DNA of 64,000 nt, from assembly GCF_036365525.1 (NCBI RefSeq), contig NC_090404.1, positions 1,426,001 through 1,490,000 on the forward strand. Direction: 5' to 3'. The notes under the pieces are model-generated. The model was not told where the DNA came from and did no database searches. It worked only from the letters and a program-made list of their open reading frames with translations. Below are positions 13,557-53,784 of the stretch, piece after piece (position 1 is the first letter of the stretch; every line of letters starts with the position of its first letter). The stretch comes from Heterodontus francisci. Its lineage: Eukaryota. Both the position numbers and the translations under genes were made by a program.

Positions 13557-13583
13557 TTACCTGTCAAATAAATAATTAGAACA

Positions 13584-15165
13584 AAGTGTGACTGGATCTT
13601 TAATCCGGATCTCATTGCATAGTGTGACTGGATCTTTGATCCGGATCTCATTGCAAAGTGTGAATGGATCTTTGATCCGGATCTCATTGCATAGTGTGAC
13701 TGGATCTTTGATCCGGATCTCATTGCATAGTGTGAATGGATCTTTGATCCGGATCTCATTGCAAAGTGTGACTGGATCTTTGATCCGGATCTCATTGCAT
13801 AGTGTGACTGGATCTTTACTCCGGATCTCATTGCAAAGTGTGACTGGATCTTTGATCCGGATCTCATTGCAAAGTGTGACTGGATCTTTGATCCGGATCT
13901 CATTGCAAAGTGTGACTGGATCTTTGATCCGGATCTCATTGCATAGTGTGAATGGATCTTTGATCCGGATCTCATTGCAAAGTGTGACTGGATCTTTGAT
14001 CCGGATCTCATTGCAAAGTGTGACTGGATCTTTGATCCGGATCTCATTGCAAAGTGTGACTGGATCTTTGATCCGGATCTCATTGCATAGTGTGACTGGA
14101 TCTTTGATCCGGATCTCATTGCAAAGTGTGACTGGATCTTTGATCCGGATCTCATTGCAAAGTGTGACTGGATCTTTGATCCGGATCTCATTGCAAAGTG
14201 TGACTGGATCTTTGATCCGGATCTCATTGCAAAGTGTGACTGGATCTTTGATCCGGATCTCATTGCAAAGTGTGACTGGATCTTTGATCCGGATCTCATT
14301 GCATAGTGTGACTGGATCTTTACTCCGGATCTCATTGCAAAGTGTGACTGGATCTTTGATCCGGATCTCATTGCATAGTGTGACTGGATCTTTACTCCGG
14401 ATCTCATTGCAAAGTGTGACTGGATCTTTAATCCGGATCTCATTGCATAGTGTGACTGGATCTTTAATCCGGATCTCATTGCAAAGTGTGACTGGATCTT
14501 TAATCCGGATCTCATTGCAAAGTGTGACTGGATCTTTAATCCGGATCTCATTGCAAAGTGTGACTGGATCTTTAATCCGGATCTCATTGCAAAGTGTGAC
14601 TGGATCTTTAATCCGGATCTCATTGCAAAGTGTGACTGGATCTTTAATCCGGATCTCATTGCAAAGTGTGACTGGATCTTTAATCCGGATCTCATTGCAA
14701 AGTGTGACTGGATCTTTAATCCGGATCTCATTGCAAAGTGTGACTGGATCTTTAATCCGGATCTCATTGCAAAGTGTGACTGGATCTTTAATCCGGATCT
14801 CATTGCAAAGTGTGACTGGATCTTTAATCCGGATCTCATTGCAAAGTGTGACTGGATCTTTAATCCGGATCTCATTGCAAAGTGTGACTGGATCTTTAAT
14901 CCGGATCTCATTGCAAAGTGTGACTGGATCTTTAATCCGGATCTCATTGCAAAGTGTGACTGGATCTTTAATCCGGATCTCATTACAAAGTGTGACTGGA
15001 TCTTTAATCCGGATCTCATTGCAAAGTGTGACTGGATCTTTAATCCGGATCTCATTACATAGTGTGACTGGATCTTTAATCCGGATCTCATTACAAAGTG
15101 TGACTGGATCTTTAATCCGGATCTCATTACAAAGTGTGACTGGATCTTTAATCCGGATCTCATTA
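13584..15165. repeat. 36-bp minisatellite array
   Basis: Unit agtgtgactggatcttt(g/a)atccggatctcattgca(a/t) repeats ~44 times. It explains the 12-aa periodic ORFs on both strands. Confidence 0.98.
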
Positions 15166-25335: not shown

Positions 25336-26502
25336 TACCTGGACTCAGGGTAGAAATTTGTCTCAGACTGTGGTGCAAACCGGATGGTATTAGGTGGGCT
25401 GCCTTTTCCTAATCCCACTGTCTGCAATGGAACAGAATATCAGGCGCTGGGTAGAACTGGCAGGCGATCCCATACCACCCGTGATGAATTTCTAACCCAC
25501 AGTGTTTGATTCTAACATGGGCTGTGTGGTGGGGAACATCACTGAGCACAAACACTGATGGGTTAATTAACTGGAGTAAAACACTTCTGTCTGTGTGATT
25601 CCAATGCACATTCTTCTTTTCCAGAAAGACGTTAAAAATATTCCCTGTGTCCGGATGATTTTATACATGATTTTTGCAGCAGTTATTGTTCAGCATCTTG
25701 TCTGGATTTTCTCACTAGGATCCCCTTCCTTCCTTTCTTTCTTTCCTTCTGGTCTTTTATCCTTCTTTCTTCCACTTTCTTTCACTCCTTATCTTTCTTC
25801 CATTCAGTTTTTCCTTTGTTTTTCATCTTTCGTTCTCTCCCCTTTTTTATTTCTTGACCTCTTTCTTTCACTCTATTTCTCTGTGTCCTACAATGTCAAT
25901 AGAACAGTTCTACCAGCTATCGGGGTAAAGCTTGAACAGTTCTGGAAAGATGTTGAAAGGATTAGTTCAGTGTGAGTGGCAAGGGGTGGAGTAGGATGTC
26001 AGTGCTGTAATGTAATTTACTATTTGAGGCCTATTCCAGTATAATGCAAAGTCGCAATCAGCATTGAACCAATTGTTAATATAATTGTTTAATAACAGTT
26101 TAATTGGTTAGGATTAAAGCGGTTTTAGTTTGTTCTTCCTGGGGGGGTGGGGGAGGGAGGGGGGGTGTGGGTAAGAGGTTCTTAAAATTCTGAATACATT
26201 GAGAAATTAGGTGGAGGGCAAAAGTGAGCAAATTCAAAGCACGATTGTGTCACACATTACAGGCCAATCAGCCTGATGGTGGTGGAGGTGGGGAAATTTT
26301 TAGAAACAGTAATCAGGAGAAAATTTATGGAAACATTATTTACACAGCGTGTTGTTGTGATCTGGAATGGACTTTCTGAAATGGTGGAAGAAGCAGATTC
26401 CAAACCATCATCTAGAATGGTGCAATTAGTTTCTGGTGATATTGTACATTGACATTTCATTTCACATTCCACTTGATTTAGTTTACAATTGACATCAGTT
26501 TG

Positions 26503-27203
26503 GAAAACTCCCTCTACACTGTCCATCAAACACTCCCAGGACAGGTACAGCACGTGGTTAGATACAGAGTAAACTCCCTCTACACTGTCCATCAAACACT
26601 CCCAGGACAGGTACAGTACGGGGTTAGATACAGAGTAAAGCTCCCTCTACACTGTCCTCATCAAACACTCCCAGGACAGGTACAGTACGGGGTTAGATAC
26701 AGAGTAAAGCTCCCTCTACACTGTCCACATCAAACACTCCCAGGACAGGTACAGTATGGGGGTTAGATACAGAGTAAAGCTCCCTCTACGCCATGGTTGT
26801 CCAACATCTGGCTCGGCAATGTAAACTATACCCGGCTGTTCCTCCTACTTGTTGAGTGGTTTCTGCCCTCAGCCATTTGCTTTGTCCTTTCCTTGAATCA
26901 GAATTTCAAACTTGGCTCTGCTTAAAAAAAAAACAGGGTTAGATACAGAGTAAAGCTCCCTCTACACTGTCCTCATCAAACACTCCCAGGACAGGTACAG
27001 TACGGGGTTAGATACAGAGTAAAGCTCCCTCTACACTGTCCACATCAAACACTCCCAGGACAGGTACAGCACGGGGTTAGATACAGAGTAAAGCTCCCTC
27101 TACACTGTCCCCATCAAACACTCCCAGGACAGGTACAGTACAGGGTTAGATACAGAGTAAAGCTCCCTCTACACTGTCCCCATCAAACACTCCCAGGACA
27201 GGT
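26503..27203. repeat. 69-bp satellite, left part
   Basis: Unit gggttagatacagagtaaagctccctctacactgtccccatcaaacactcccaggacaggtacagcacg, interrupted at 26791-26933. Confidence 0.97.
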
Positions 27204-28758
27204 TTGACTGTTGCTTGATTGGAGGTGCTGACTGCTGATTGCAGCAATGAGCCTCAGCTGGCAGTGCTGGTGACAGTTGGAGGTTGCAGAGATGGAGAGA
27301 GGAGTTACACTGAGCAGAGGGAAAGCTTGAACAACAACTTCAGTTGGAAACAAGACTTGGTTTGGAGGTGGGTTCTGAACAGAAGTTTGCTTTGCTTTGG
27401 ACTGTTGGGGGAGGAACAAGTGGCCGGAACAAGAAGGGGTGGGGCTGCCAATTCTGTAGGGTTGTCTGCTGCTGCAACAAGGACACAGGGAAGCTCCCTC
27501 CCCATCCCAATTGCCCAGCCTGGGTCAGCTGAAGCTGCCCGGTAAAAGAGACAGAAGGGGAAAGCTGGTGCCTGGGCAGCTTCAGCTGACCCAGGTGAAG
27601 ACGCCTCCCCCAACCAGAAGACTGGAAAACCAAGAGTGCTGGCAAAGACTGTTTTAAGTGTGCTATGTACACCACATCCTGAGAGAAAGTCATCCCTTAC
27701 AGCCTGTTTTTCCCTCTCCTCTATACCGTCAGCCTCTCCCCTAACCTGTTATTTGTTTTTTTAATTCAGTATCTCTTGTGAATCTTTCATTTTTTTCAAT
27801 TTGCAAGTCTACCACTCAGGGTGGGTTCATCACCGGTGGCGGGGCCCTCTACTACCTTTGCAGCTGCAGCCTCTGTGGCTGCCCATTTAGTCCCTTCACC
27901 CTTTAAATTAATAACATCCATCCATGGGGTGAAGAGCTATCCCCACCCCAACATGTCCATTGAGGCCTGCGTAAAGGCAATGGCCGAGGTTGTTGGCCCC
28001 TCGGCCATTGTAGCAGCCTGGAAGATGTAAGGGAAGGCTGTGTTCTTCTTGAAGACTGGGTGGGCAGTGTCCCTGGCCTTGAGTCAGGGGCTCACTGTGG
28101 GGGGGACCTTCCGGTCAGTGGACCCTCTGGGGGCCACTGCGCAGTGGATCATGTTATCAAACAACCCGCACTTCATTCCCAGTGAGATCCTCCTCCCCCA
28201 TCTGCATCATCTGGGGGAGGTAAGGTCAGGGATCACCCCAGTCCTGCTCGGTCTTTGGGAGAACAGCCTCCGGCATGTCTACTCCTTCTGCCACCAGCTC
28301 TTTATGCAACCGGTGCGGGAGGAGGTCTTGGAGGGCCATTTCATGAGTCACATCACCCCTATTTCTAGTGGGGTGGCTATTTTGTTGGTCCCAACTTTTC
28401 AGCCGGAGATCTTGGGGGTCAAGGAGCTTGTGCCGGGCTGCTTACGCACCTCGTCGCTCGCCTGAGTAGTGTGCCGTTCCACTTTGTGAATGTGTACATG
28501 CCCAGGCCCGGTGTGTTGCAAGCACGCTTCTTTGAAGAAGTTTCCGTTCTCTTGAGCTCTATCGACAGTGGCGAGTGCATCATCCTCGGGGGGGATTTTA
28601 ACTGTACCCTTGAGGTGAGGGATCGCTCCGGTCCCCAGCGTGGCCAAGCGTCGGTGGAGAAGTTGAGGGGACTGATCAGTTCCCTCAACTTGGTGGATGT
28701 CTGGCAGAATCTCCACCCCGACTCCAGTGCCTTCACCTGGAGGTCTGGAGGAGGAAGG

Positions 28759-29738
28759 TGTTACGACCACTTAAATATAGACAAGGATTATTAAGATCAG
28801 CACACGACATTCCTTTTTCAGTTCCTGTCAAAGCTCCCAATCAAAATATATGATTCTGATTGTGGTGGGACCAATGAACTTTTAATTCAATCTCTTGACT
28901 CCACAGATCGGCTAACATATAATTTAAAACTTTCCAAATTAAAGAAAGACCCAGCCAAATTGTGCCATCTATTAACCCCTGAATGAAGCTAACCAAACCA
29001 GTGTCTTTAAATCAATAAATTAACTCTTTAATTAGCAGAACTAAATTCTTAAGCACTATGAAGATATAAACAACATTTCAAATAGAAAAAATTAGAGTCC
29101 TTGCAAATTTAGTCCAATGTTGCCTGAAGTCCTCACAGAATGATACTTGACGTCTTCACAGAATGTTGCTTGAAGTCCTCACAAAATGTGGCTTTCCTTC
29201 TCCAGCAAATTTCAACAATTAACGACTTGCAAATACTTTCAACAGAATCAATCTGACTTTAGAGATTTTGAGGGATAAAAGATTGTCACAGTCTAACTTC
29301 CCTTTCTTCAATTTAAATTACCAGAGAACTCTGTTTTGGCTTGACTTTTTTTTGAATTTTGAGAGATAATAATTAAACAGGCTAAAATCCTCTTCCTTCA
29401 ATTTAAATGGTTGAGAGTTCTTTTTCCAGGTGCTGTCATCACAGCTGTGTCTTTATGTCTTTGTCTGTGTCTCCTGTTAGAACAAACTGTCTTCAACTAA
29501 AGGCCAGTTCAAAATTGAATTGTAACAAATGTATCGCATGAGACTCACTCCCAGTGGCTGTATCTATGTTAACGAGAATGCACCCTTTAAATCGCAGTCT
29601 CCAAATGGCTGTTTCTAAGGCAACGAAAATGCACCTTCCTATAACTCCTGAGGCTTGCTGGTCCTTAAAGCAATACTGATCCCTTGCAAGCCTTAAAGGC
29701 AAACCGCATATTCCGAAAAAGACTACAAGGCCATGACA
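28759..29738 (-). repeat. 3' LTR of the Gmr1-like element
   Basis: tgttacgacc...ggccatgaca; long direct repeat of 33757-34641, adjacent to the PPT. Confidence 0.9.
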
Positions 29739-32700
29739 CCTCCGCCCCTAGCGGAATGAAACACCATTCCTGAAATACGTTTCATTACAATGGGTAAAAA
29801 AAATACAAATTGAAAAAATGCTAACGCATTTTTTTCACGCATTTACAGATGTACACATTTGTAAAAAAAAATGTTTAGACTACAGCAACAAGTTCCACCG
29901 GAACATTTCGACTTTAAATTTTCAAATATTTGTCGCAATTAATCCATTTCAAATTTCCAAGCATAGTCTTCCAATTGCTTTGTATTTTCCTTCCAAGTGT
30001 TCCTGTTGTCCATCACCTCAGCCAGGTGAGCTGCACAGCTAGGAGCACTGTCCATTACTGGGCTCACTATTCTCTGAGAAGTTTCTCAAGTACCCCTTGA
30101 CCTATGTGGCCTCACGTGACACTGGAAAACTCTGTCCGGTGTAACAGAAGCTGATTTTTTCTTACCCTGGGGTGTCAAAGGAATTTGACAGTATCCTTCC
30201 AACACATTTGTCTCTTTAAGACACATTGTGTTGCCCACTCTGTCCATACAGTCCTTTAAATGAGAATTTGGATTGGAGTCTGCCTTCTTTACCACAGTGA
30301 ATTTTCTAGAGTCTATGCAAGTTTGAGTTGTCCCACCAGGTTTAGTCACCAAGACCATCTGTGAATTCTAGCTGTCCTGACTAGTTTCATCTAAGCTGCC
30401 CTTCAGCATGTATTGTACCTCTGCTTCTACTCGGGCCTGGATCTAAGCTACAAGGATGTTGTTTTAAAGGAATGTCTCCCCCTATACCCAGCTCATGTGT
30501 GACTAAGGTTGTACATCCTGGCTTATCCCTACAAACTTTTTGAAACGTTGTGAAAACCCTGGTTAGAACTTCACGCTGTTTTGCCTCTAAGTGTAAAAGC
30601 CTATTGTTTAATTTTCCTAGCCGTTCTGCATTCGCTAATGGGATAGTTGGAGGTTCAATCTGAGAATTCCCTAGGCCTACTTCTGCCTCATCCTCACTAT
30701 CCTTTTCCTTCTCCACAGTCCCGATTACCTGACATACCTGTACTGGCTTATCCTCCTCCCTGCGGTAATATGGTTTGAGCAAATTAATGTGACACACCAG
30801 TTCTTCATCCGGCGATCAGGGGTGTCAATCAAGTAATCTACCTTACACACTCTTTTGATCACTCTATATGGGCCACTGAACCGTGTTTTCACTGGTTCTC
30901 CCTGTGACGGTAACAACACTAATACCTCATCCCCTGGTTTTATGGTAGGTTGTGGTTTTCCCACCGTTTGACAGATGTGGCATGCCCTACAAAATTGTCT
31001 CACATCCTTTGTAAGACCTGGCCAGTAATAATGTTTGCTTACGTGTGATTTGGTTTTCCAAATTCCCCTATGTCCTGAAAAAGGAATGTCGTGTGCTAAC
31101 CTTAATAATCCTTCTCGATATTTAGGTGGTACCACTATATGTTCAACAACTGTCCAGTCTTTGTCAACAGGTCTATGAGGCAGTCTCCACTTCCTCTTCA
31201 AAACCTCGTTTGAAATATAATAGCCTTCCGGAATTCCTTTCACCTCAGCTTCTGACTATTCTCTCTGCATATGAGTTAGTCCCCGAAGCTTACAGTCAGA
31301 AGTTTAGGAACTGACGCAGATTGACTGGGCAGTCAATCTGCCCAGTCAATCTCCGTAAGTTCCTAAACTTCTGACGGTAAGCTTCAGGGACTAACTCATA
31401 CGCAGAGAGAAGAGCAGTCTGTGCTATTTGGTAGATCTCTGGATCAGCTTGCTGTGCTGCAATGTTAGATGTTCTGTTAAACATCTCATTTGGATTATCT
31501 AAATCCCCAAATAAGGTTTCAGATGCCTGACTATCTATTTGTGGTGCCCCTTTTAGCTCCGACAATGGATCCTGTTTAGCCATTGCTCGGATAACGACAC
31601 ACAGGAAATATTCTCAGAACTTGCCCCTGTAATTGCTCCGTTTCCTTCATTTCACTTGGTTCCTCTGTAACCATAGGAAAAAATGATATTTTTGATCTAG
31701 CCAAATCATTTCCTAGGTGTAGATCAATTCCCTTTACTGGTAAACTATGGACAACACCTACAGTTACTATCCCCAGTTATTAAGTCACTCTCTAGGCATA
31801 CTTTATACAAAAGTACGGGTATACACACACCCTGCCAATTCCATTAAATAAAACTTTAGCGTTCAAGGCGCTATGAGTTGGAAACCTCATATTTTTCCCT
31901 AGCAAGAGTGTTTGAGCCGCTCCTGTATCCCTGAGTGTAATGATAGGTTTTCCTGCCTCAGTTACGGGATACGGAGTTACTCTTCCCTTTGACAAAAAAT
32001 CATTATAACTCTCAGGTATTTTATTCTTAACCTCTACACTCCTCTTAGTTTTAGTATCTGGTTTCACATTCACAGCTATCGTTAAAGCTATAGCCTGGTC
32101 TGCTACACTCTCAGTCAGAGTCTATTCCTCTGCAATAACTTTGCGTACCCCAACAAGTGCTATGGGTTTACCTTGCAATTTCCAACACTCTGAACGAAGA
32201 TGACCTGTTTTGTCACAATGATAACACTTTGGCTTGCGAACCTCACTTCTACCCTCAGCACCTTCCTTTCTGACCTGAGGAGGTGATCCTGGGGCGTTTC
32301 CAGCTGTACCTTCCTGTCCCCGGCTACTTGCCTTCCTTTCACTCTCCCACTTTCTATCCTTCTCGGGTTTATGGGGGTGATGGACAAAATAGGTTGGCTT
32401 ATTCACAAGCTCAAAATCATCAGCAATCTCTGCTGCTTGCCTAGCTTTCAAAACTTTCAGGTCATCTATATGATTTCTCACTACTGAAGGAATGGAGTTT
32501 TTAAACTCTTCTAAGAGAATCAGTTCTCGAAGGTATGGTATATGTGGTTTCTATCTTTAATGCCCGTATCCAACGGTCAAAATTCATTTGCTTCACCCTC
32601 TCAAATTCTAAATATGTCTGCCCAGTCAATCTCCATAAGTTCCTAAACTTCTGACAGTAAGCTTCAGGGACTAACTCAAACGCAGCGAGAATAGCCTTTT

Positions 32701-33756
32701 TTGCCATCTCATTATCTGCAGAAGCCTCTTCAGAAAGCATGGCATAAGCTTCATGAGCTCTGCCTACCTGCCTGCCCTGCATGAGCAATGTCCAGCTTTC
32801 TTTTGACCATTTCATCTGTTTGGCTATTTTTCAAAAGATAAGAAAAATGCCTCTACATCCCTTTCCTCGAACTTAGGAAGAGCCTGTATAAATGTAAACA
32901 ACTTCTAGTTGGGTCTTGATCTAAATTCAGATTCTTCCTGACCCAAATTTTCCCTGGATTTAAGACTACCCCTTTGTCTTAGTTCCATCACTTTTAGCAT
33001 AAATTCCCTCTATTCTCTTTCACTCCCTCTCTGAAGTTCAAGTTTTCTTATTTCTTTTTCTGCATCACGTTTTTTTGTTTCTTTTTCCTGCTGAAGCTCC
33101 AGTTTTTTCATTTCTAACTGAATCCTAGCCAATTCCACTGCATCAGTCTCAGACCTATTAACTTCATGTCTCTCATATGCCCTTACTTGTTCCTCGTATC
33201 GCCCTTCATCTGTATTACCATCATCATCATCTTCTTCTACCAATTCCAGATGTTCGGCTATTATTTCAATTATCTCTGCATTTTTGGCACCTGATTTCAA
33301 TTCTAACCCCAATTTCGCTGCCAATTCTTTTAATTTGTTCTTGGCTAAAGTTATCAAGTCACTCAGGGAAACATTCTGCTTTCCCAAAAACTCTGCTACA
33401 ACCACTAATGTCATAACAATGGTGTAGACTGTACCTTATTGGATAAGAGACCTGGTTCTTTGTAATTGGTTCAGATTTAGATCCCAACAATCAAGTTTCC
33501 AATTGATAAGATCCCAGACTCGAGAGCAATTAATCTGATGCCAAACGCAAAACTCCAATTTAAATATGTTATCCCAGAGACGAGTAATTACTATGATTCC
33601 AAATGTGAGCCCTCCAGATTAGTCAGATTCTGATCCCAGACACGAGCCACCGAATTAAATGATTCAACTGTGAGTGAGTCCCCAATTAAGATATGATTCA
33701 AATCCAGAAACCCAAGTAATATGAGATTCAAATATTGAGTGAGCCCCCAATTAATA

Positions 33757-34641
33757 TGTTATTCAAATCCTGTCGCTCCACAGATCAGCTAACATATCAT
33801 TTAAAACTTTCCAAATTAAAGAAAGACCCAGCCAAATTGTACCATCTATTAACCCCTGAATGATGCTAACCAAACCAGGTGTCTTTAAATCAATAAATTA
33901 ACTCTTTAATTAGAAGAACTAAATCCTTAAACACTATGAAGATATAAACAGCATTTAAAATAGAAAAAAATTAGAGTCCTTGCAAATGGAGTCCAATGAT
34001 GCTTGAAGTCCTCACAGAATGTTGCTTGAAGTCCTCACAGAATGTTGCTTGAAGTCCTCACAGAATGTTGCTTGAAGTCCTCACAGAATGTTACTTTCCT
34101 TCTCCAGCGAATTTCAACAATTAAGGACTTGCAAACACTTTCAACAGAATCAATCTGACTTTAGGGTTTTTGAGAGATAAAAGATTGTCACAGTCTAACT
34201 TCCCTTTCTTCAATGTAAATTACCAGCGATTTCTGTTTTGGCTTGACATATTTTAGAATTTTGAGTGATAATAATTAAATAGACTAAAATTCTCTTCCTT
34301 CAGTTTAAATGGTTGAGAGCTCTTTTTCTTGGTGCTGCCATCACAGCTGTGTCTGTATGTCTTTGTCTGTGTGTCCCGTTAGAACAAATTGTCTTCAACT
34401 AAAAGCCAGTTCAAAATTGAATTGTAACAAATGCATGGCATGAGACTCACTCCCAGTGGCTGTATCTATGGTAACGAGAATGCATCCTTTCAATCGCAGT
34501 CTCCAAATGGCTGTTTCTAAGGCAACGAAATGCACCTTCCGATAACTCCTGAGGCTTGCTGGTCCTTAAAGCAATACTGATCCCTTGCAAACCTTAAAGG
34601 CAAACCGCATATTATGAAAAAAAAACTACAGGGCCATGACA
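33757..34641 (-). repeat. 5' LTR of the Gmr1-like element (lacks ~120 bp near the PBS end)
   Basis: Aligns to the other LTR from ctccacagatc onward and carries extra 23-bp gcttgaagtcctcacagaatgtt units. Confidence 0.88.
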
Positions 34642-37341
34642 AGGGTCCCGATTTGGCCGCCTCCACATTTCACAGGCTTCTATGTGGCTGGTGCCGTGCT
34701 CGGACCAGCACCTGGTGTAAGAGGAGCTCGCTGCGCACGCGGGCAGGGTCCCCATACTGGCACTTTATCAACTGGCTGCTGGACGACGAGCGATTCCGGG
34801 ACTCGTTCTGTCAATTCTGGGCTGACTGGAGAAGGAAGTGGGGGGCCTCACCTCCTGGAGACTATTGGCGGCCCATCTCACTGCTTAATGTTGGCTACAA
34901 GATTCTGTCCAAAGTCATAGCCAGTCGAGTCAAGTCTGCTCTGGAGTTGGTGATCCACCCCGATCAGATCTGTACTGTACCCGGCAGAAAGATCTCTGAT
35001 AGACTCGTCCTGGGGAAAGCCTGCTGACCGGGGAGATGCCCCTCTTGTGGCGCAAGGGTGGTCATAGTCCTGCTGCCAAAGAGGGGCGATCTCCGCCTGC
35101 TTAAAAACTGGCGTCCGGTCTTCCTCCTCAGCACGAAATGCAAGATCTTTGCCTGGGCTATGTCTACCCGCCTGGGCTCCGTGCTGGCCCACATGATTCA
35201 CCCTGACCAGTCCTACACGGTCCTGGGCCGGTCCATCCAGGACGACATCCACCTGGTCCGGGACCTGATCTATTTTTCCCAGCGGACTGGTCAGTCGGTC
35301 GCCTTTTTCTCCCTCGATCAGGAGAAGGCGTTCGACAGGGTGGATCACGAATACCTTTTCGGGACTCTGCACGTATTCGAAATTGGGTCCGACTTTTATA
35401 CGCCGCCGCAGAGTGTTTGGTAAAAGTTAATGGGTCCTTGACAGCGCCCCTTCGTTTTGGGAGAGGAGTGCGTCAGGGAAGCCCCATGTCTGGCCAATTG
35501 TATACCATAAGCATGGAGCCCTTCCTGTGCCTGTTTCTCAGGAGTTTGACAGGTTTGGCTCTGCTTGGACCAGGCATGTGGGTCGTCCTATCGGCTTACA
35601 CTGATGACATGCTCCTCATGATCACAGATCCCGTTGACTTGCTGAGGATGTTAGAGTGCCAGCAGACCTTTTCTGCCGCATCCTCCGCGAGGATCAATTG
35701 GGAGAAATGTTCCGGTCTCCTGGTGGGTCAGTGTTGGGTGGACTCCCTGCTGGAGGAGTTGACACCTTTTGCGTGAAGCACCACGCACCACCACTATCTG
35801 GGACTCTACCTTAGCCCCGTTGAGGAAGCCTGGCCGGCAAACTGGCAGGAGTTGGAGGCAAAAGTCACCACTCGGCTGGGGCGCTGGACTGGATTGCTCC
35901 GAGTGCTTTCCTACAGTGCTGATCATAGACCAACTAGTGGCCTCGATTGGTCACTTTGACCCCACCCTCTGCGTTTTCCACCAAGATCCAGAAGAAACTC
36001 GTCAATTTCTTCTGGGGCAAGAGGAAACACTGGGCCCCTGCCGCAGTCCTGAGTCTCCCGATTGAGGAGGGCGGCCAGTCGCTGGTGTGCATCCGCATCC
36101 AGGCTGCGACTCTCCACCTTCGGACCCTGCAGAGATACCTGTACATCGAGCGTCTTCCCAGATGGTGTGCAGTGGCGACGTATTTTTTCCACCAGAGGCA
36201 CTGCCCCCAAGACAACACGTAGCTCCCGGTGGAGAACGTTAACCACTCCTCTCTGAGGGAGTTGCCTGTCTTTTACTGGGATCTATTCAGATGGAACATG
36301 GTTGCCTCCAGTCAGGGTGCTCCTCCCACCGGTGGAGGAGAACACCTCGGCTGTCTGGCTCGGGGAATGGACGAATGGGCGGAGCAGTAGCCGAAGTCCC
36401 CAGGACACCCCTCACTGCAGGTAACAAGGGAGCTCGGGAGCGCAGAGCAGATCCGGCTGAGTGGACCCCCTGCTCGGCTGGAACTGCTCATCGGACCCAG
36501 GCCCCTAAACCCTCCTCGGGAACCGGTCCCGCACAACCCGAGCTGCCTTATGGAAATGCCCCCTATGCCATTCCAAACGGCACGGAGGGATTTCCTGTAT
36601 GGGCTGCTCCTGTACACTCTCCACTTCCTCACCCTTGTCAGCCGCCCGGACACGCCCTGGCAGTCCATGTTACCATCTGGCGGCAAGAGGAAATCCCAGG
36701 TCCCTCCGTGCGGGAGCCCTCCCCCTTTACATCAGGGACATGGGGTGGAGGGTGCTGCACAGGGCAGTCCCGTGCAATCGACTTTTAAGTAGGTTCACGG
36801 ACTCCCAGGTCGCCTGTAATTTCTGCGGCCTGGACGAGTCCATGTTCCATGTATATATATGGAGTGTGCGAGGTTGCAGCCCCTCTTTGAGTATTTGAAG
36901 GGGCTGCTCCTCACGTTTTGGCTGCACTCCAGCCCCATGCCCCTAATCTTTGGGCACCCGGTGTGGAGAGGGTGGGCCGGGAGGAGGATCTCCTCATCTG
37001 TCTGCTCCTTGGCCTGGCTAAGGTGGCAATTCACAGGTCCAGGCTACGGGCCGTCCTGATTGCCTGCCCCTCTTCGGAGGTTACGTTCACGCCCAGGTGT
37101 CCCTGGAAAAGGAGCATGCGGTGTCCGCCGGTACGCTTGAGGCCTTCTGCGACCGGTGGGCACCGCAGGGACTGGAGTGCATTGTCGACGCCGAGAATGG
37201 CATTTTAATTTGAGTTTTGTTTATTTAATTTGATTTTAATAAAGAGTTTATAAAATGTATAAAAGGGGGGCCTGAGGAATAAAGGCCCCCTCGACAAATT
37301 ATACATAAAAGGGGCCTGGGGTTTAAAGGCTTTGAAAAAAA

Positions 37342-38459
37342 TGGTGTTAGATACAGAGTAAAGCTCCCTTTATACTGTCCCCATCAAACACCCCCAAAAG
37401 AGAAAAAGAAAAAAAAAAGGGGCTAGATACAGAGTAAAGCTCCCTCTACACTGTCCCCATCAAACACTCCCAGGACAGGTACAGCACGGGAGTTAGATAC
37501 ATAGTAAAGCTCCCTCTACACTGTCCCCATCAAACACTCCCCAGGACAGGTACAGCACGGGGGTTAGATACAGAGTAAAGCTCCCTCTATACTGTCCCCA
37601 TCAAACACTCCCAGAACAGGTACAGCACGGGGGTTAGATACAGAGTAAAGCTCCCTCTACACTGTTCCCATCAAATACTCCCAGGACAGGTACAGTACGG
37701 GGTTAGATACAGAGTAAAGCTACCTCTACACTGTCCCCATCAAACACTCCCAGGACAGGTACAGCACGGGGGTTAGATACAGAGTAAAGCTCCCTCTACA
37801 CGGAAAAAAAGGGGGAAAAAAAAAAGAAAAAAAAAACGGGGGAAAAAAAACGGGGTTAGATACAGAGTAAAGCTCCCTCTACACTGTCCCCATCAAATAC
37901 TCCCAGGACAGGTACAGTACAGGGTTAGATACAGAGTAAAGCTCCCTCTACACTGTCCCCATCAAATACTCCCAGGACAGGTACAGTACGGGGTTAGATA
38001 CAGAGTAAAGCTCCCTCTACACTGTCCCCATCAAATACTCCCAGGACAGGTACAGTACAGGGTTAGATACAGAGTAAAGCTCCCTCTACACTGTCCCCAT
38101 CAAATACTCCCAGGACAGGTACAGTACGGGGTTAGATACAGAGTAAAGCTCCCTCTACACTGTCCCCATCAAATACTCCCAGGACAGGTACAGTACAGGG
38201 TTAGATACAGAGTAAAGCTCCCTCTACACTGTCCCCATCAAATACTCCCAGGACAGGTACAGTACGGGGTTAGATACAGAGTAAAGCTCCCTCTACACTG
38301 TCCCCATCAAATACTCCCAGGACAGGTACAGTACAGGGTTAGATACAGAGTAAAGCTCCCTCTACACTGTCCCCATCAAATACTCCCAGGACAGGTACAG
38401 TACGGGGTTAGATACAGAGTAAAGCTCCCTCTACACTGTCCCCATCAAACACTCCCAGG
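37342..38459. repeat. 69-bp satellite, right part, with poly(A) interruptions
   Basis: Same unit as 26503-27203; period 69 (gggttagat at 37922, 37991, 38060). Confidence 0.97.
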
Positions 38460-40543
38460 TTTGTTACTTCTGGACACATGTAGTTCTACAGGTTTGAAAG
38501 CAAACTGCTGCAGTTTGATACCAAGCCTCAAACAAATAGAAAGTTTAACCCAGAAGGTCAGAATGTCTGAGGTCCTAATTGTGGGAATCTGCATGTCTGT
38601 TATTGCGTGAAAGAAAGACAAGATTTGCTGAATTTCAATACTTTCTAACACTCAGTGATGGAATGAATACATTTTGCCTTATTTGTGAAGTCAGTGACAA
38701 GTCTGGGTTGGATTAGGAACAAATGTGTTTTATATTTCTGATGTTTTATTGAGCTTTACTTTTCAAGCTTTTAGTTTATCACCCAAGGAAGTGCTGAGCT
38801 TATTCCATATCATTCTTTATCATCCAACTGGGTTAGATATCAAAACACCCTTGTTCTATTAACCAACATTGATAGTCATGCATTACAAGTGGTTGTGAAA
38901 GAAAGAACTTGCATTTCTACAGCACCTTTTATGATCTAGGATGTCCCTGAGTGCTTTACAGCCAATGAAATACTTGTGAAGTGTTGTCAGTGTTGTCATG
39001 TAGGGAAAGTGTCAGCCAATTTGTGCACAGCAGGATCCCATGAACAACAACATGAAAATGGCCAGATAATCTGTTTTTAGCGATGTTGGTTGAGGGATAA
39101 ATATTGGCCAGGACATCAGGGAGTCAGTTTAATGTCTCATCCAAAAGACAGCACCTCCCACAGTGTAGCATTCCCTCACCACTGCACTGGTATGCTCGTG
39201 TAGATTTTGTCCTCAAGTCTCTGGTGTGGGACCTGAACCCACAGCTATCTAACTCCAAGGAATGAGTGTGAGCACTGAGCCACAGCTGAATGGGTGACTA
39301 CTGTCCGTTTTACATCACCCAAAATGAACATTATCTCATTCCTCTCTGCCAAAGGAAAGAACACCAGGCTGCTTAATCTTTCCCCCCATACTCAACTTCC
39401 TGGATCTGTATCACAGTAAACTCTCCTGGACCAGAATGTCCTCTGCCACGACTGGATGATCCAGAATTTCACACAGATCTCCACATGGAGTTTCACCAAC
39501 CAACAATACAATGGGGGGTGAATTTGGTGAAGGCTGTAGCAGAATTCAGGAGATAACAAATACCTGTCCAGACTTTCTATCCCACTGACTCCAATAGGAA
39601 AGAGAATGGGACAGAGAGTAACCCAGGCTGCTGATTCACTCTCAACTGATTTACACAATCACCCAAGACCAGTTTCACCCCCAGTATCTTTTTATAAATC
39701 TAGCTCTCTGCTGATACAGCCAAGCTCGTGTTTAGCCTCTTTACAGCAGCAACATGCTGAGTCTCAGGGATTTATCAAAGTTATCCCCTAGATCCATTTC
39801 CTGATCACCACGTCACAACACCGTTTGATCCGCAATGAATTACACTTACCGTCCACTGGTCCCACGATGTAAATGATGTTGACTGATATTATCAAACCAC
39901 CCACACTGGAAACGCTCAGCACCTCAGACAGCATCTGTGGAGAGAGAAACAGAGTAAACACTTCAGGTCGATGACTCTTCATCAGATCTCTTTTATTCAG
40001 ATTTCCAGCACCCACAGTAGTTTGATTTTCTTTTACTGTTTATAAAAAAAGGGCTTGAATTGATACATCGCCTAGCATAACTGCAGTGCTTCCCAAAGGG
40101 CTTCACAGCCAATGAAATGCTTTTGAAGTGCAGTCACGATTATAATCTAGGGAAACACGGCAGCCAATCTGTACACAGCAAGATCCCATAAAGCAACGAG
40201 GTAATGACGAGATGCTCTGTTTTAGTGATGTTGGATGAGGAATGAATATTGGCCAGGACACTGGGGAAAACACCCCTGCTCTTATTCGAAATAGTGTCGT
40301 AGAATCTTTTACATCCCACCTGAGAGGAGAAAGACGGCACCTCTGGCACTGCAGCACTGCCTCAGCACTGCACTAGAGTGTCAGTCTGTGATATCTCATT
40401 AACAGTTTCCAGGCTTGCACTCTGAAATCCAGCTTTATTTTCCTCATTCACACTGCTTTCCTTTCTTGTATAATAGGTACATTCAAGGAGGTTCTTTCTC
40501 CAGAAAACAACATTTTGGAAGACAGTATATGAGTAATTTCAGG

Positions 40544-46877: not shown

Positions 46878-47929
46878 TTGGTTGTGAATGGAATTGGCCG
46901 TTGAATTTTATTACAAACCATTTGGTAGGTTTAAATCCAGCCCATGGTGTCTGTCTGGGTGAAAGTGTAAACAGTGTGAGAAGTTACAGCCCGAGCTTGG
47001 GTTCCTCACCCAACCCACTCCTTGTATAAATGGTCATTTTCTTTTTGTGACCTGTGGTGGATCAGGTTGAATAGGGTCTCGGCCACACCACTTGACCATC
47101 ACCTCTCAGGACTGACTCTAGTTGACAAAAATTGGAAGCCTCTTTGTTACCCAGCGAGGCCGTGGGGTTGGGAGGTGGTGATGGAGGAGGCAGGGTGATG
47201 AGAAATATCACATTGATCCAGTAACAGGGAGGATTAACCCTCAATGATGTTTGTCCTGAGGCAAATTGATGATTTAGGACACAAAGATTTAACTGGTGCC
47301 ATGAACGACCTGGTAGGTTTTGGATAAAAACTCTGATCAGCAGAAACAGAAAGAGTTCCCTTCACTCCCCAAACCTAGGTACTGATGTCAGCAGGGGGAG
47401 GTGGTGGCAGTGTAGTAGAATATCACTAGATTAGTAAACCAGAGCCCCAGGCTAATGCCCTGGAGAAATGGGTTCAAATCCTTCCACGGCAAATAGTGAA
47501 ATTTGAATTCAATTAATTAAAAAACAAATCTAGTGGTGACCATGAAACAATTAATGATTGTTGTAAAATCCCATCTGGTTCACTAATGCCCTTCAGGGAA
47601 GGAAATTTGCCATCTGTACCTGGTCTGGCCGACATGTAACTCCAGACCCACAGCAATGGGGTTGACTCTGAAATGGCCTAGCAAGCCACTCAGTTGTATT
47701 AAACTGGTACAAAGTCTAAAAAGAGGAATGAAACTGGATGGACCACCCAACCTCGGTACTGGAAACGGCAAACCCAGCCCTGTTGACCCTGCAAAGTCCT
47801 CCTTACTAACAACTGCGGGCTTGTGCCAAATTTGGGAGAGCCGTCCCACAGACTAATCAAGAAACACCCCTGACATATTATACTCATGGAATCATACCTT
47901 GCAGACAATGTCCCAGACCCACCAAGTTC

Positions 47930-49190
47930 ACGGGCAGGAGGCATCTGTTCAAAAGGGACGGGTTACATCCAAAGAGGACTGGACCAATGTCATCACAGGG
48001 AGGTTCACTGGTGTCATTGGGAAGGGTTTAAACTAAATTGGAAGGGGCCTGCGCACCTGCATATCAAAGTAGAAAAGAGGAATAATGTACATAAAGGAGT
48101 GGGAGTCTTGGATAGTGCTCGAGAAGGAAGTAGTACGACATCAGATAGAAGCTGACAAAAAAAAAGGAAGATGAAGAATACAAAGACAGGTTTAGAAAAC
48201 ATGTATGTAACGCACAAAGTGTGGTGAATAGGGAAGATAAACTACACGTGCAAATAGCCATGTGGGAATATGATGTCGTGGTAATAACAGAAACGTGGCT
48301 TAAAAATGTTGCGACTAGACATTGAATCGTCAAGGATAGAAAGTGCTCAGAAAAGATAAGGAAGGAAAAAAGGAAGATGGTGTGACAGCACTGTTTAGGG
48401 AAGATATTGTAGTGTTGAAAGGAGAGGATGTCCTTGAGTGGGCAAGGACGGAATCCATTTGTTTAGATTTGAGAAGCTAAAAGTGTATGATCACACTACT
48501 GGGGAGGGGATTCTATTGGCCTCCGAATTGTGAGAGAGAGACAGAGGAGCAAATCTGCAGGAAAATCACAGAAATGTGCAAGAACAATAGAGTGGTGATA
48601 CTGGGGGGCTTTGATTACCCAAATATTGATTGGGATCATGTTAGAGTAAAGGGAAAGGAGCAGGAGGAATTTCTGAAATGTGTTCAGGAGAATTTCCTTG
48701 ACCAGTATGTTTTTGTCCAACCAGGCTGGATTTAGTGCTGAGGAATGAGATGGGCCAAGTGGACAAAGTGTCTGTGGGAGAACACTTGGGGATGAGTGAT
48801 CATCGTATCATAAGGTTTAGATTAATAATGGAGAAGAGCAAAGAACAATCGAAAGTAAAACTTCTAAATTGGAAGAGGGCTAACTTGAATGGGATGAGAG
48901 GGGATCCAGCCAGGGTAAAATGGAACCAAAGTTTGACAGGAAAAACTGTAACGAAACAAAGGATGATCTTTAAGGAAGAGATATTTCAGGTATAGGTTGG
49001 GTACATTCTAACAAGTGGGAAAAGCAGGGGAACAAAAGCTAGGGTTCGTTGGATGACGAAGGAGACAGATAATATGATGAAACAAAAAACAAGGGTGTAT
49101 GATGCACATCAGGTGAAATCTTCAAGTGAGAACCAGGCCAAATAAGTTGAGGGGAAGTGAAGAGGAAAATGAGACTGGAAAAGATCAGAC
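47930..49190 (+). mobile_element. Degenerate CR1-type LINE (endonuclease region)
   Basis: YDVVVITETWL, VVILGGFDYPNIDW, FLKCVQENFLDQYV and HLGMSDHRIIRF. Confidence 0.85.
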
Positions 49191-49299
49191 AGGCTGTTGA
49201 AGGTAACAGAGATAGGGAGAGGTGAGGCCATCGATCCACGGCCCCACACGGGGGCTGCAAGTAAACAAGCATTTATTCAGCTGTTTCTTTTGCTGAGCA

Positions 49300-49336
<37 letters not shown>

Positions 49337-49820
49337 GTCCATTTCACAAACTGGACATTGCATTTTATTAACATCACCACATCTAAATGTCACTCAGCCC
49401 CACAATTCAATTGCAGTCCCCAGTGAGGATCTATTGGTCACAGTTGTGACAAACTGATTCAAAACAGATCTGGTGGGTTCCAGATGCTCTGATTATGTTT
49501 TCTCAATCAAAACATAAAAGCTAAGAAATTCAAGATAACTTTTAAATAACCCTGGGATTTTCTAATGTTCAATTTGCTACAAATTTAGCTGCAGTATCGC
49601 TTGATCCAATATCAGCCCAAGATATTATCTATTATAAAGGATTCTGTCTTCACCTTCCATCACATCATCTTTTTTATTCATTTCATGGGATGTGGGCATC
49701 ACAGGCAAGGCCAGCATTTGCTGCTCATCCCTAATTGCCCCTGAGAAAGTGAAGGTGCTGCCTTCTTGAACTGCTGCAGAGCATCTGGTGCAGGTACACC
49801 CATAGGGCTGTTAGGGAGCC

Positions 49821-49935
49821 AGTTACTACCTAACTGTGAGTACAGAGGAGTGAAGGAAGGGTTCAATCTTCAACTGCACAGTGTCTCATCCACCCTCCAA
49901 CTACAAAACCAGCAAGGAGGTGAACAATGTCCAAG
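49821..49935 (+). pseudogene. Decayed 3' third of an Ig constant exon (probably IgW CH4)
   Basis: SYYLTVSTEE*RKGSIFNCTVSHPPSNYKTSKEVNNVQ-G|gtagga shows the C1-set E/F/G strand pattern. The conserved Trp codon is TGA (49851-49853). The 5' part is replaced by a repeat fragment at ~49670-49820. Confidence 0.88.
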
Positions 49936-50901
49936 GTAGGATCCTGGGCCTGACTCCAATATTAATATCATTTGTCCCGATGGCTATAAACTCAATTAGG
50001 TCCAGACAAGTTCAAAACGTGCAGTAATGTAGTGGTTCTGTAAGTGGACTAGAAATCCAGAGGCCTGGACAAAGAAAGAAATAATAGCATTTTTGTTGCA
50101 TCTTTCACATCCTCAGGACATTCCAAAACACTTGACAGCCAACAAAGTATTTTTTTGAAGTGCAGTCACTATTGCAATGCAAGGAGCGCGTCAAATAATT
50201 TGTGTACAAGGTCCCACAGACAGCAATATGATGATGACCAGATAATCTGTTTTAGTGTTGTTGAATTTGAGATAAATCTTGACCAGGCCACGGAGGACAT
50301 CTCCCCTTCCCTCTTTTGAATCATGGCCATAGGATCACTTTGGTCCACCTGAGAAGGCAGAGTAGGCCTTGGTGTAACATCTCATCTGAAAGACGGCAGG
50401 TCTGACAGTGATGCACTCCCTCAGTCCTGGCTCCGGGTACGCGGTCTTGATTATGTGCTCAAGTGTCTGGAGTGGAGCTTAAACACACAACCTTCCGACA
50501 CAGAGGAGAGGGCCCTACCAATGAGCCAAGATTGACAGGTACAGTTCATAATCCTGAGAACTGAGTTCAAATCCCACCGAGGCAGTTTGAGAATTTGAAT
50601 TCAGTTTGAAAAGTAAAAATTGGAAATAGAAAGTTGGTTTCAATAAAAGTGACCATGAAGCTGTCGGATGGTCATAAAAACCCAACTGGTTTGTGAATGT
50701 TCCTTTGGGAAAGGATACCTGTTGCCTTTACCCTGGTGGTTCTAGTCCCATACCACTGTGCTTGACACATAACTCCCCTCTGAAGTAGCCAAGCTAACCA
50801 CTCAGTTGTATCTCTGGAGATGAGCATGAAATGCCAGAATTGCAAGTGAAGCCGACATCCCATTATGGAATCAGAAAATAATATTGTAATATTTCTCCCA
50901 G

Positions 50902-51222
50902 ATGAATGTTTGGACACTGGGATCTCGGTCATCTTAAGCAAGCCTCTTTTTGAAGAGATCTGGAGGAACAGGATGGCGACAATTCTTTGTGAGGTACTTC
51001 ATGGTGATTTAGAGGGGGTCAGGGTAACCTGGCAGGTGGATGGAAGTGAGAGAGAAGATGGAGTGAAGACTCAGGGTCCCGAGAGGATTGGAGATAAAGA
51101 CGTGATCTTCAGCAGACTGACGGTCCCTGCTGCAGAGTGGGAGAGTGGGGTTGAGTATTTGTGTTTGGTGGAGGACAAGAGTTTGCCAACGCCGGAGAAG
51201 AGGTCAATCAGGAAAGCTCAAG
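50902..51222 (+). CDS. IgW: IgW penultimate constant exon (CH5-type)
   Basis: ctcccag| acceptor. (D)ECLDTGISVILSKPLFEEIWRNRMATILCEV...VTWQVDG...EWESGVEYLCLVEDKSLPTPEKRSIRKAQ. Donor G|gtacgt; 321 nt. Confidence 0.95.
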
Positions 51223-52351
51223 GTACGTGTGGATGGAACTGTGAGTCTGTTCTTAGCAAATGAAGTGATTTATTAATATCTAACAGTAAGCTGTTTAATC
51301 CGGGGTGTCAGACTGTGTTAAAGACCAAGAGATGTGCAAACACTGCCAAGAAATAGATCAGATAAAACCTCAAATCACCACAACAGCCTCACTCCAAATC
51401 ACACTGACTCCCATGGAATCAGTTCACGGTTATGGAATAAACAGAGAGGGATTAGCAGCTTTCACAACATTAGAAAGATCCCGAGTCAAGTCAGCCATTG
51501 GAATGGTGAGGGAGATCGTCTGTCTGAGGAGTAGGTTGAAGCCGAGCAAATCCATTAAGAGGAAGGGGAGATGAAGCAGACACCACAGGACGAGAATAAT
51601 CCCTGAAGCCTAACTCTCAACAACAGTAAGCAGGGGCTGGGAAGTGGATCTCTGATGTTTCTCATAGAATCATATAACACAGAAGGAGGCCATTCAGTCC
51701 ATCACCCCTGGGCCAGCTCTTTGAAAGAGCTATTCAATAATCTCACACCCGATCTACTCTTCCCCAATAGCCTTGCAGTTTTCTCTCTTTCAACCAGATA
51801 TACAATTCCCTTGTGAAAGTTGCTATTTAATCTGTTTCCACCACCCCCTTTCAGGCAGTGCTTTCCAGATCATCAGAACTCGCTGAGCAAAAGAAGATTC
51901 TCCTCTCTTTCCCTCTGGTTGTTTTCCAATTCTCTAAAATGACTGCCCTCTATTTACTGACTCTCGTACCAGTGGAAACAGTTTATCCTTATTTATTCCA
52001 TTAAAATCCCTCACGATTTTAAGAATTTTGATTAAATTGATCATTCAAAGAACAGTCCATCGCCATTAAACGTTAGGACACTCTTTCTGCAGAGTCCCAG
52101 TTGTTCACTGGCTCCAAATGTTTAAACTGAACAAGTTATTCTCACTGGTTATAAAATCAGCATGATTGAAGATTCCATCCCATGCACCCTCTACTCCAAC
52201 AATGAACAAAATGAGAAATGCTTTTAGTTTCTGATATAGGAGGGGTTCTTGGGGATGCAAAAGTTCCTAGGTTTGTAGAAGAATAGAACATGTTAGGTAA
52301 ATACAGGATGAGTGAAAGACTCAGTCTAACCCAGGTTGTCTCTGTTTCCAG

Positions 52352-52734
52352 TTGATGTTCAGACTCATCCTCAAGTCTACCTCCTCCCCCCTTCACCACA
52401 TGAGATGGAGACGGATCAGACGGCAACCCTGGTTTGTCTGGTCACCGGATTCTCCCCCGCAGAGATCTACCTGGCCTGGATGGCCAATGACACGCTTCTG
52501 AAGTCAGGGTTTGTGAACCAGCCAGTGACCGAGGATGGCAGAAGTGGCTGGAACTCAGGCAGTCAGTTGACAGTCTCTGCAGAGGAGTGGAACAGCGGCA
52601 CCACTTATTCCTGTGTGGTGGGACACGAGTCAGTCACAACCAGTTTGTTCAGAAGCATCAATAAATCTCATAACAAACCCACCTTGGTCAATGTCTCACT
52701 TGTTCTAACTGATAGCTTTAAATCCTGTTCATAA
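52352..52734 (+). CDS. IgW: IgW terminal constant exon (CH6-type) plus long-form secretory tail
   Basis: ttccag| acceptor. HPQVYLLPPS...ATLVCLVTGFSPAEIYLAW...YSCVVGHES...INKSHNKPTLVNVSLVLTDSFKSCS*, a mu-like tailpiece with an NVS sequon and penultimate Cys. Confidence 0.96.
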
Positions 52735-52882: not shown

Positions 52883-53784
52883 CATCCTTTTCTCCAAATG
52901 TCTGAATGTCCAGAGTTCTTTTTGAAACCTTCTTGTGCTGTGTTTGAGCAAGTGTGAAACTTGTATGGGACCCCATGAAGGGTTAAATGTATTAGTAAAT
53001 TGTTAATGTACTGATCCAATTTCAATAAACGAGATGTGAAAAGGTTTTAGTTTTGGGTGTTCATTATTGCTGTGTTTTGGGAGACAGTAAATGAGAAACT
53101 TGGGACATGAGGTGTGGGGGGTGTAGCATGTTTGGGAGGAACAGGGGACTTTGGACCTACAGTTTCCAAAGTTCTCCACCACTGGGATTTCCTCACTGCA
53201 TGTCTGGGTCTGTTGTAGATGAATCAATAAGAGATTGATTGATATGATTAGTTCACAACTCCATCATCATTGTATCACACGAATATCAGGATGGCAGAAG
53301 GCAAACTCGATGGACTTTGGTCATTCATTGTTGAGCAATTTCAGTTTGTGCAAAGCAAGATCCCACAATAAGAGCTGTGAGAATGACCACATCATCTGTT
53401 TTTAGATGTTTGTTGAGGGATTAAATGTTGTCTCAGGACACTGTGGAGAATTCCACTGCTTTTCTTTTAATAACGCTGTGGGATTATTTACATCCACCTG
53501 AGGGGCCATTATTTAACGTCTCATCTGAAAGACAACACCTGACAGTTCAGCACTTCCTCAGTCCTCCACTGGAGTGTCGACCTAGATTATGGGCTGAAGT
53601 CTTTGGAGTGGAACCCATAACCTTCAGACTCAGAGGCAAACATGCTCCCCACTAAGCCACCTGTGTCAGGTGAGGGATGTCCCTGTTTGAGGTGCTCAGG
53701 CACCTCGGTGCTGCTCAACCAGGTGTGGATGGATGAGGTTGAATGAAAGAAGTCGTGTGTTTAGACACTGGTCACTTTTCTAAA

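What the first reader, a model, noticed from the sequence alone, without database searches (positions are those of the whole stretch)
26503..38459. Candidate satellite-targeting retrotransposon: repeated poly(A) footprints at one position of the 69-bp unit
Seen: the Tx1 element's A tail (37335-37341) is followed by tggtgttagatacag. Three further A tracts end at essentially the same position of the unit: 26924-26933|cagggttag, 37396-37418|ggggctag and 37803-37850|cggggttag. The last is compound (A-tract ggggg A-tract cggggg A-tract cggggttag), as if hit several times. Established: several Tx1-clade families are sequence-specific for tRNA/snRNA arrays or microsatellites. Inference: a Tx1 family nicks this shark satellite just before (c)ggggttagatac, and the bare A tracts are extreme 5'-truncated insertions. 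This would be a host-repeat/parasite pair I do not recognise as described.
Basis: partly seen in the sequence, partly recalled or inferred. Interest (0 to 1): 0.72.

Follow-up and report, generated by a model that had tools for sequence, protein, structure and literature searches.

The report
Shark LINE hits one satellite base
A decayed Tx1-type jumping gene, an unrelated 134-base piece and two further runs of A all rejoin a 69-base repeat at the same base or next to it, and the same kinds of junction are common in short-read data of a matching species, so the element's enzyme likely cuts this one site: a new target for a group already known to aim at repeats.

Summary
Confirmed: the four A tracts rejoin the 69-bp unit at phases 1, 1, 2 and 1 (chance 5e-5 if independent, 1.5e-3 for three events). 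They hold all 4 of the window's A10 runs; 9 kb of other arrays hold no run of 7 or more A. The element is an old, broken Tx1-clade LINE.

In Illumina data of a matching species (not this locus), 43 of 146 reads at the family's 3' end align on toward the satellite site. Another 143 reads show satellite-A run-satellite scars, so such scars are not assembly artefacts as a class.

One tract tails an unidentified 134-bp insert. One is likely the second tail of a 3' transduction. The compound tract is one scar probably duplicated locally. About 70% of 3'-end reads stay unresolved and no enzyme test exists.

Satellite-targeting Tx1 families, trans cargo, poly(A)-only insertions and 3' transduction are each published; I found no paper on this shark pair. 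This scan reported the same system on other pieces of this genome. New member of a known kind.

The parts
26503..26789 (+). 69-bp satellite, about 4.2 units, ending at unit phase 32
   Evidence: TRF; unit split; phases
26790..26923 (+). 134-bp unidentified insert (likely 3' end of a non-Tx1 poly(A) RNA copied in trans)
   Evidence: no significant second match in the window; no Rfam match over it; no Pfam match for two open frames; no look-alike in scan notes
26924..26933 (+). A10 tail of that insert; satellite resumes at phase 1
26934..27203 (+). 69-bp satellite, 3.9 units, ending at phase 63 at the Tx1 5' junction
27204..28758 (+). Tx1 5' part: presumed 5' UTR, ORF1 remnant (assigned by eye, no Pfam hit) and part of the APE endonuclease (28316-28758), with a large deletion between them
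   Evidence: translation; Exo_endo_phos E 2.3e-4, below the curated cut-off; 39% to Xenopus Tx1 ORF2 residues 76-212
28759..34641 (-). Nested, decayed Ty3/Gypsy LTR retrotransposon interrupting the endonuclease; LTRs about 90% alike
   Evidence: self-BLAST 28899-29738 vs 33776-34641, 90.2%; SCAN, zf-CCHC and Integrase_H2C2 hits; TG...CA ends
34642..37213 (+). Rest of Tx1 ORF2, broken by frameshifts and stops: RT (35007-35911) and C-terminal zinc knuckle; 34866-35012 is an RT piece of another LINE family
   Evidence: RVT_1 E 8e-15 and 7e-13, zf-RVT weak at E 0.004; 56-62% to Xenopus Tx1 ORF2 over the RT pieces; foreign piece 22 of 49 aa identical to the element's own matching stretch
37214..37341 (+). 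Tx1 3' UTR and A7 tail; satellite resumes at phase 1
   Evidence: family reads end in a long poly(A) at this point (loose end at 37330)
37342..37395 (+). 54-bp satellite piece, the most diverged 69/70-bp-type unit here; likely carried with the element as a 3' transduction
   Evidence: 6 of 53 mismatches to the window majority, against 0-4 in the other 20 uninterrupted full-length units
37396..37418 (+). A-rich tract 2, likely the second (true) tail of the Tx1 insertion; satellite resumes at phase 2
   Evidence: two-tail pattern as described in PMC4859970
37419..37801 (+). 69/70-bp satellite, about 5.5 units, ending at phase 34
37802..37850 (+). Bare compound A/G tract (period 14, 3.8 copies); satellite resumes at phase 1
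   Evidence: TRF; similar compound fills in short-read contigs
37851..38459 (+). 69-bp satellite, 8.8 near-identical units (98%)

Best explanation
Four poly(A)-ended interruptions rejoin this 69-bp satellite at one base or next to it, likely because the endonuclease of a Tx1-clade LINE family nicks the bottom strand opposite that base and its reverse transcriptase then copies a bound poly(A) RNA from the nick. Shown: the shared 3' junction; a Tx1-type ORF2; and, in a matching species, the same junction for other family copies and for bare A scars. Inferred: the enzyme is the agent. The second strand is likely cut about 30-35 bases further on, giving the usual 5' junction at phases 30-34. The 134-bp piece is likely a foreign RNA copied in trans. 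Tract 2 is likely the tail of a read-through RNA that carried 54 bases of satellite from a parent copy. Tract 3 is likely one abortive insertion later duplicated by slippage or re-priming. The window's own copy is dead and old, so younger events would have been made by relatives elsewhere in the genome.
For: Phases 1, 1, 2, 1; native AAA runs unused. No A run of 7 or more in 9,073 bp of other arrays. Tx1 clade: 63% identity to Xenopus Tx1 ORF2 over 65% of a 189-aa query. Run X17, organism A: 43 of 146 reads covering 37323 align on through 37331-37335. The satellite is at least 0.023% of letters read, so this is a roughly 900- to 90,000-fold excess over chance, depending on the background assumed. 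5 of the 8 X1 contig pieces shown run from the 3' UTR to 37360-37370, and one organism-B contig spans 37203-37395. 143 reads sit in six listed satellite-to-A-run joints, against a depth of about 645 at the A run. The letter after the A run is C in 336 of 655 reads. 6 of the 10 satellite-to-A fills shown leave the unit at phase 30-33 (read by eye), matching the window's 32 and 34. Control: contigs aligned across 37345 versus 37370 are 108 vs 128 (capped) in organism A, 15 vs 42 in B, and 7 vs 124 in D, whose Tx1 relatives leave the reference near 37180.
Against: 103 of the 146 reads at the 3' end are not shown to reach the satellite. 46 end in a long poly(A) whose far side is not displayed and 57 are unaccounted for, so 'most copies' is not proven. 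That the 43 reads reach the satellite, and not only the A7, is inferred. X1 contig 3 stops matching at 37341 with 48 letters left, and one organism-B contig leaves at 37258 into other sequence. The contigs shown are biased to long matches. Both references carried the A7 at phase 1, so A tracts at other phases were not counted evenly. No run holds this locus (best share of words 0.34), so these four tracts were not checked in reads. The Tx1's own 5' junction is at phase 63, not 30-34. The putative duplication around the 134-bp insert differs next to the junction. A duplication length in a tandem array is only defined modulo 69.
Confidence: 0.7

Rival explanations
1. The site is a general hot spot (a nick- or break-prone structure in the G-rich part of the unit) used by several retroelements; this Tx1 family is one client and need not be the agent of the scars or of the 134-bp insert.
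For: Only 43 of about 645 reads at the A run are shown to carry this family's 3' end. An earlier scan note reports Penelope-like insertions at one spot of a 69-base repeat in another shark (e1-9954330; not checked, and not shown to be the same site).
Against: Organism D has the satellite but few such junctions (7 vs 124 contigs), which points to a lineage-specific agent, not to the DNA alone. Tx1L endonuclease nicks almost only its own target in vitro (PMC1950540 passage).
Confidence: 0.12
2. The 'bare' scars are not empty: they are polyadenylated satellite transcripts, cut 10-25 bases after the AGTAAA in each unit and pasted back at the target site, so what looks like a 30-35-bp duplication is RNA-derived.
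For: AGTAAA lies at phases 16-21 and is a used poly(A) signal variant peaking 10-25 nt upstream of cleavage (PMC8773104). Scar exits at phases 30-47 overlap that window.
Against: The 134-bp insert also leaves the unit at phase 32 on its 5' side, where polyadenylation cannot apply (n = 1). Several fills carry a few non-satellite letters before the A run. The unit has no clear U/GU-rich downstream element (by eye). This reading still needs a targeted nick.
Confidence: 0.1
3. No targeting: one parent Tx1 copy happened to land in the satellite and its read-through RNAs spread the 'tail plus satellite' junction to random places.
For: The window itself shows the two-tail pattern of a 3' transduction (37335-37418), so some junctions are inherited and not independent.
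Against: After tract 2 the satellite resumes again at phase 2. The 134-bp insert and the bare scars carry no Tx1 sequence yet use the same site, with satellite on both sides.
Confidence: 0.05
4. The tracts are assembly or sequencing artefacts, or slippage of native A runs.
For: These four tracts were not seen in reads of this individual. Tract 3 is low-complexity.
Against: The same geometry occurs in raw Illumina reads (78 reads with 54 distinct starts at one joint) and in short-read contigs, compound A-G-A fills included. Native AAA runs are at other phases.
Confidence: 0.03

Closest known systems
Tx1L of Xenopus laevis (ORF2 = UniRef YTX2 entry, P0024), inserting into Tx1D
   Same: APE-RT-zinc knuckle ORF2; 63% identity in the RT segment; insertion at one site of a repeated target; endonuclease shown sequence-specific in vitro (PMC1950540, PMC1919474 passages)
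   Different: The target here is a 69-bp tandem satellite, not a DNA transposon; no enzyme test; this copy is broken
Target-specific Tx1 families: Keno (U2), Kibi and Koshi (microsatellites), crocodilian Tx1-Mar, and families labelled 'Sat' in Kojima 2015 Fig. 3 (PMC4494074)
   Same: Preference for one repeated target; Tx1-Mar is inferred to mobilise other RNAs (SINEU) into the same target
   Different: Different target and host group. I saw only the figure legend, so I do not know which satellite-targeting families it names, and no tree with them could be built
Human L1 by-products: poly(A)-only insertions, processed pseudogenes and 3' transductions (PMC4859970 Table 1 rows 120-124 and Fig. 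2 legend)
   Same: Bare poly(A) insertions, foreign RNA cargo, two-tail transductions
   Different: L1 nicks T-rich TTTT/AA sites all over the genome; here the junction is a fixed non-T-rich site and the apparent duplication (about 30-35 bp) exceeds the 4-20 bp given for L1

Membership tests
Tx1-clade non-LTR retrotransposon | ORF2 with N-terminal APE endonuclease, RT and C-terminal zinc knuckle | tested here: met
   Pfam (RT above cut-off; APE and zf-RVT weak, fragments); tblastn with Xenopus Tx1 ORF2 maps residues 58-212 and 491-1289 in order, with gaps, plus the extra foreign piece
Tx1-clade non-LTR retrotransposon | RT closest to Tx1-type proteins | tested here: met
   The only hit named as an element among the best 120 of 334 is Xenopus Tx1 (63%); most others are unnamed turtle proteins
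Tx1-clade non-LTR retrotransposon | Placement in an RT phylogeny with named Tx1 families (Keno, Kibi, Koshi, Tx1-Mar) | not testable with these tools
   Only Tx1L came back with a label; Repbase is not held
Tx1-clade non-LTR retrotransposon | 3' poly(A) tail | tested here: met
   A7 at 37335-37341; 46 family reads end in a long A run
Target-specific Tx1 family | Independent copies at the same base of one repeat | tested here: inconclusive
   At least 43 of 146 reads and 5 of 8 shown contigs join the site, far above chance, but 103 of 146 reads are unresolved and some junctions may be inherited
Target-specific Tx1 family | Consistent target-site duplication | tested here: inconclusive
   5' exits at phases 32, 34, 55 and 63 in the window; 6 of 10 shown fills at 30-33; defined only modulo 69
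Target-specific Tx1 family | Endonuclease nicks the target in vitro | not testable with these tools
   Needs a bench assay
3' transduction (tract 2) | Two A tails with source-locus flank between them | tested here: met
   A7, 54-bp diverged satellite piece, A-rich tail
3' transduction (tract 2) | Source copy with the same diagnostic flank found elsewhere | not testable with these tools
   No genome held
Poly(A)-only insertion (tract 3) | A tract without element sequence at the nick site | tested here: met
   37802-37850 holds only A, G and two C
Poly(A)-only insertion (tract 3) | Empty allele or orthologue without the tract | not testable with these tools
   No listed run holds this locus

The most novel reading that the evidence does not exclude
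The satellite and the LINE feed each other. The repeat is the enzyme's cut site and also carries a poly(A) signal variant (AGTAAA), so read-through and satellite RNAs get tails, are copied back into the same base, and thereby grow arrays and seed new landing sites: a vertebrate satellite that expands by site-specific retrotransposition of its own RNA.
Probability: 0.15. Interest if true: 0.75.

Novelty: new member of a known kind. Interest (0 to 1): 0.5.

Why it matters
It adds a probable new target to the Tx1 clade. Bare A scars and foreign cargo at the same base suggest an APE-type enzyme that is strict about DNA but loose about RNA. That makes a natural test case for how such enzymes choose sites and where target-primed reverse transcription aborts. 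The junction is common in one species and rare in another that has the satellite, so gain or loss of targeting can be dated across sharks. Each ingredient is already known from other animals.

Tried and rejected
No assembly was held, so no genome-wide table could be made. The satellite motif gave 0 matches in viral, metagenome and prokaryote collections. No RNA holder was listed for the element; this says nothing on expression.

The 134-bp insert stays unidentified. None of 6 weak Rfam matches in 26400-28000 overlaps it, Pfam gave 0 families for two open frames, and scan notes had no look-alike. It was not searched against the large protein database.

Rejected: expansion of native A runs (wrong phases). 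Rejected: L1-type priming at a T-rich site (the site is not T-rich on the cut strand). Three separate hits for tract 3 are not preferred: they would need 5-6-bp duplications, against about 30-35 elsewhere, and the tract is a period-14 repeat.

A tree with named Tx1 families was not built, for lack of labelled sequences. PMC8010645 'minisatellite' refers to MHC codons, not this repeat. The 2026 retrocopy preprint links Tx1 to non-mammalian retrocopies but had 0 occurrences of 'satellite' or 'target site'.
Full report
Observation. The region holds a 69-bp satellite in three blocks (26503-26789, 26934-27203, 37342-38459), broken four times by sequence that ends in an A tract. Numbering the unit from the C of CGGGG-TTAG, the satellite resumes at phases 1, 1, 2 and 1. 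Four independent ends within two adjacent phases have a chance of 4.6e-5. If two of them are one event, three ends give 1.5e-3. All 4 A runs of 10 or more in the window lie here, and six other arrays totalling 9,073 bp have no A or T run of 7 or more. The unit's own AAA runs are at phases 19-21 and 45-47, so these are not slipped native runs.

The element. 27204-37341 is a decayed Tx1-clade LINE. RT fragments hit RVT_1 (E 8e-15, 7e-13); the endonuclease and zinc knuckle hit weakly. Among the best 120 of 334 relatives, the only one named as an element is Xenopus Tx1 ORF2 (63% over 65% of the query). A stingray protein reaches 75%, which fits, but does not prove, a shark or ray source. The copy is dead: it has frameshifts, deletions, a 147-bp RT piece from another family (22 of 49 aa identical to its own matching stretch) and a nested LTR retrotransposon whose LTRs are 90% alike. 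The Tx1 insertion is therefore older than an insertion that has itself decayed by about 10%.

The tracts are four different things. (1) 26924-26933 tails a 134-bp foreign piece that starts at phase 32 and that I could not identify. (2) 37335-37341 is the Tx1 tail; its 5' junction is at phase 63. (3) 37396-37418 follows that tail after 54 bases of satellite with 6 of 53 mismatches, against 0-4 in the other 20 uninterrupted full-length units. Two tails with flank between them is the described anatomy of a 3' transduction (PMC4859970), so tracts 2 and 3 of this list are likely one event. An earlier scan note prompted this reading. (4) 37802-37850 is bare, leaves the unit at phase 34, and is a period-14 repeat.

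Outside evidence. No genome was held and three collection scans were empty. Public runs share at most 0.34 of the element's words, so they hold relatives, not this locus. In raw Illumina reads of organism A (X17), 146 reads cover 37323. Of these, 43 align on through 37331-37335, 46 end in a long poly(A) whose far side is not shown, and 57 are unaccounted for. I infer that the 43 reach the satellite, since they cross several mismatches. Of 8 X1 contig pieces shown (1,226 not shown), 5 run from the 3' UTR to 37360-37370, 1 stops at 37341 with 48 letters left, and 2 end before the junction. The satellite makes up at least 0.023% of letters read, so a 29% share is about 900- to 90,000-fold above chance, for a genomic background of 1% to 100% of this capture library.

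Bare scars are real as a class. 143 X17 reads fall in six listed joints that go from satellite back to the A run, against a depth of about 645 there; the largest joint has 78 reads with 54 starts. The letters between were not shown for X17, so some may hold short cargo. In X1, 10 of the 12 fills shown (62 not shown) are satellite-to-A-run. By eye 6 of them leave at phase 30-33, and one is a compound A-G-A fill like tract 4; similar fills appear. The letter after the A run is C in 336 of 655 reads. Organism D has abundant satellite but 7 contigs aligned across 37345 against 124 at 37370; organism A has 108 against 128 (capped) and B has 15 against 42. Limit: both references carried the A7 at phase 1, so other phases were not sampled evenly.

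Mechanism. Best reading (0.7): a family endonuclease nicks the bottom strand at phase 1, reverse transcription starts on a poly(A) RNA, and the top strand is cut about 30-35 bases on. Full copies, foreign RNAs and aborted tails then share one 3' junction. The junctions are shown; the enzyme's role, the second cut, trans mobilisation and the transduction are inferred. Rivals are a general hot spot (0.12), scars being tailed satellite RNA (0.10; AGTAAA at phases 16-21 is a used poly(A) signal variant, PMC8773104), inheritance from one parent copy (0.05) and artefact (0.03).

What is known. Many Tx1 families prefer a target, and a 2015 phylogeny lists satellites among the targets and infers trans mobilisation of SINEU into the Tx1-Mar target (PMC4494074; passages and section 15, figure not seen). 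Tx1L endonuclease is specific in vitro (PMC1950540, PMC1919474; passages). Poly(A)-only insertions and transductions are listed for human L1 (PMC4859970; passages with table rows). PMC3747384, PMC8010645, PMC8773104 and bioRxiv 10.64898/2026.06.26.734816 were seen as passages. Kojima and Fujiwara 2004 and Christensen 2000 were not seen and are cited through those papers. Six searches found no paper on this shark pair; Repbase and subscription journals were not searched. The scan's own notes report this system on several other pieces of the same genome; they are leads, not support.

Verdict. Real, and likely a target-preferring Tx1 family with a new satellite target: new member of a known kind, interest 0.5.

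Noticed in passing
window 28759-34641 (-): The nested LTR element has a SCAN-like hit beside its zinc knuckle and places integrase ahead of the RT-like frame (RT read by eye), an order I recall for Gmr1-like Ty3/Gypsy elements; the label comes from memory.
   Followed up: partly
window 34866-35012: A 147-bp RT piece of a different LINE family sits inside the Tx1 copy where the linker between endonuclease and RT is deleted; a template switch or break repair is possible.
   Followed up: partly
window 26497-26501 and 38459-38463: The same 5-mer (GTTTG) lies at both outer edges of the whole satellite block and also at the Tx1 5' junction; chance or microhomology, untested.
   Followed up: no
window 26619-26757 and 26934-27071: A two-unit variant pattern is repeated on both sides of the 134-bp insert, so the duplication there could be about 170 bp instead of 32.
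   Followed up: partly
window 37296 (runs X1, X17): Some family copies end about 40 bases earlier, then show the A run and the same satellite site (3 contigs, 3 reads): a second 3' end using the same target.
   Followed up: no
window 53765-55348 (+): A 527-aa open frame with RVT_1 (E 1.6e-33) and DUF6451, only about 27% like Tx1 ORF2: another LINE family.
   Followed up: partly
window 1-4382, 11487-13557, 13582-15164, 57925-58481: Further homogeneous tandem arrays of 57, 47, 36 and 79 bp, none with an A tract; used only as a control.
   Followed up: partly
window 46878-52734: An earlier scan note places an IgW gene here, which would fit a cartilaginous-fish source; not checked.
   Followed up: no
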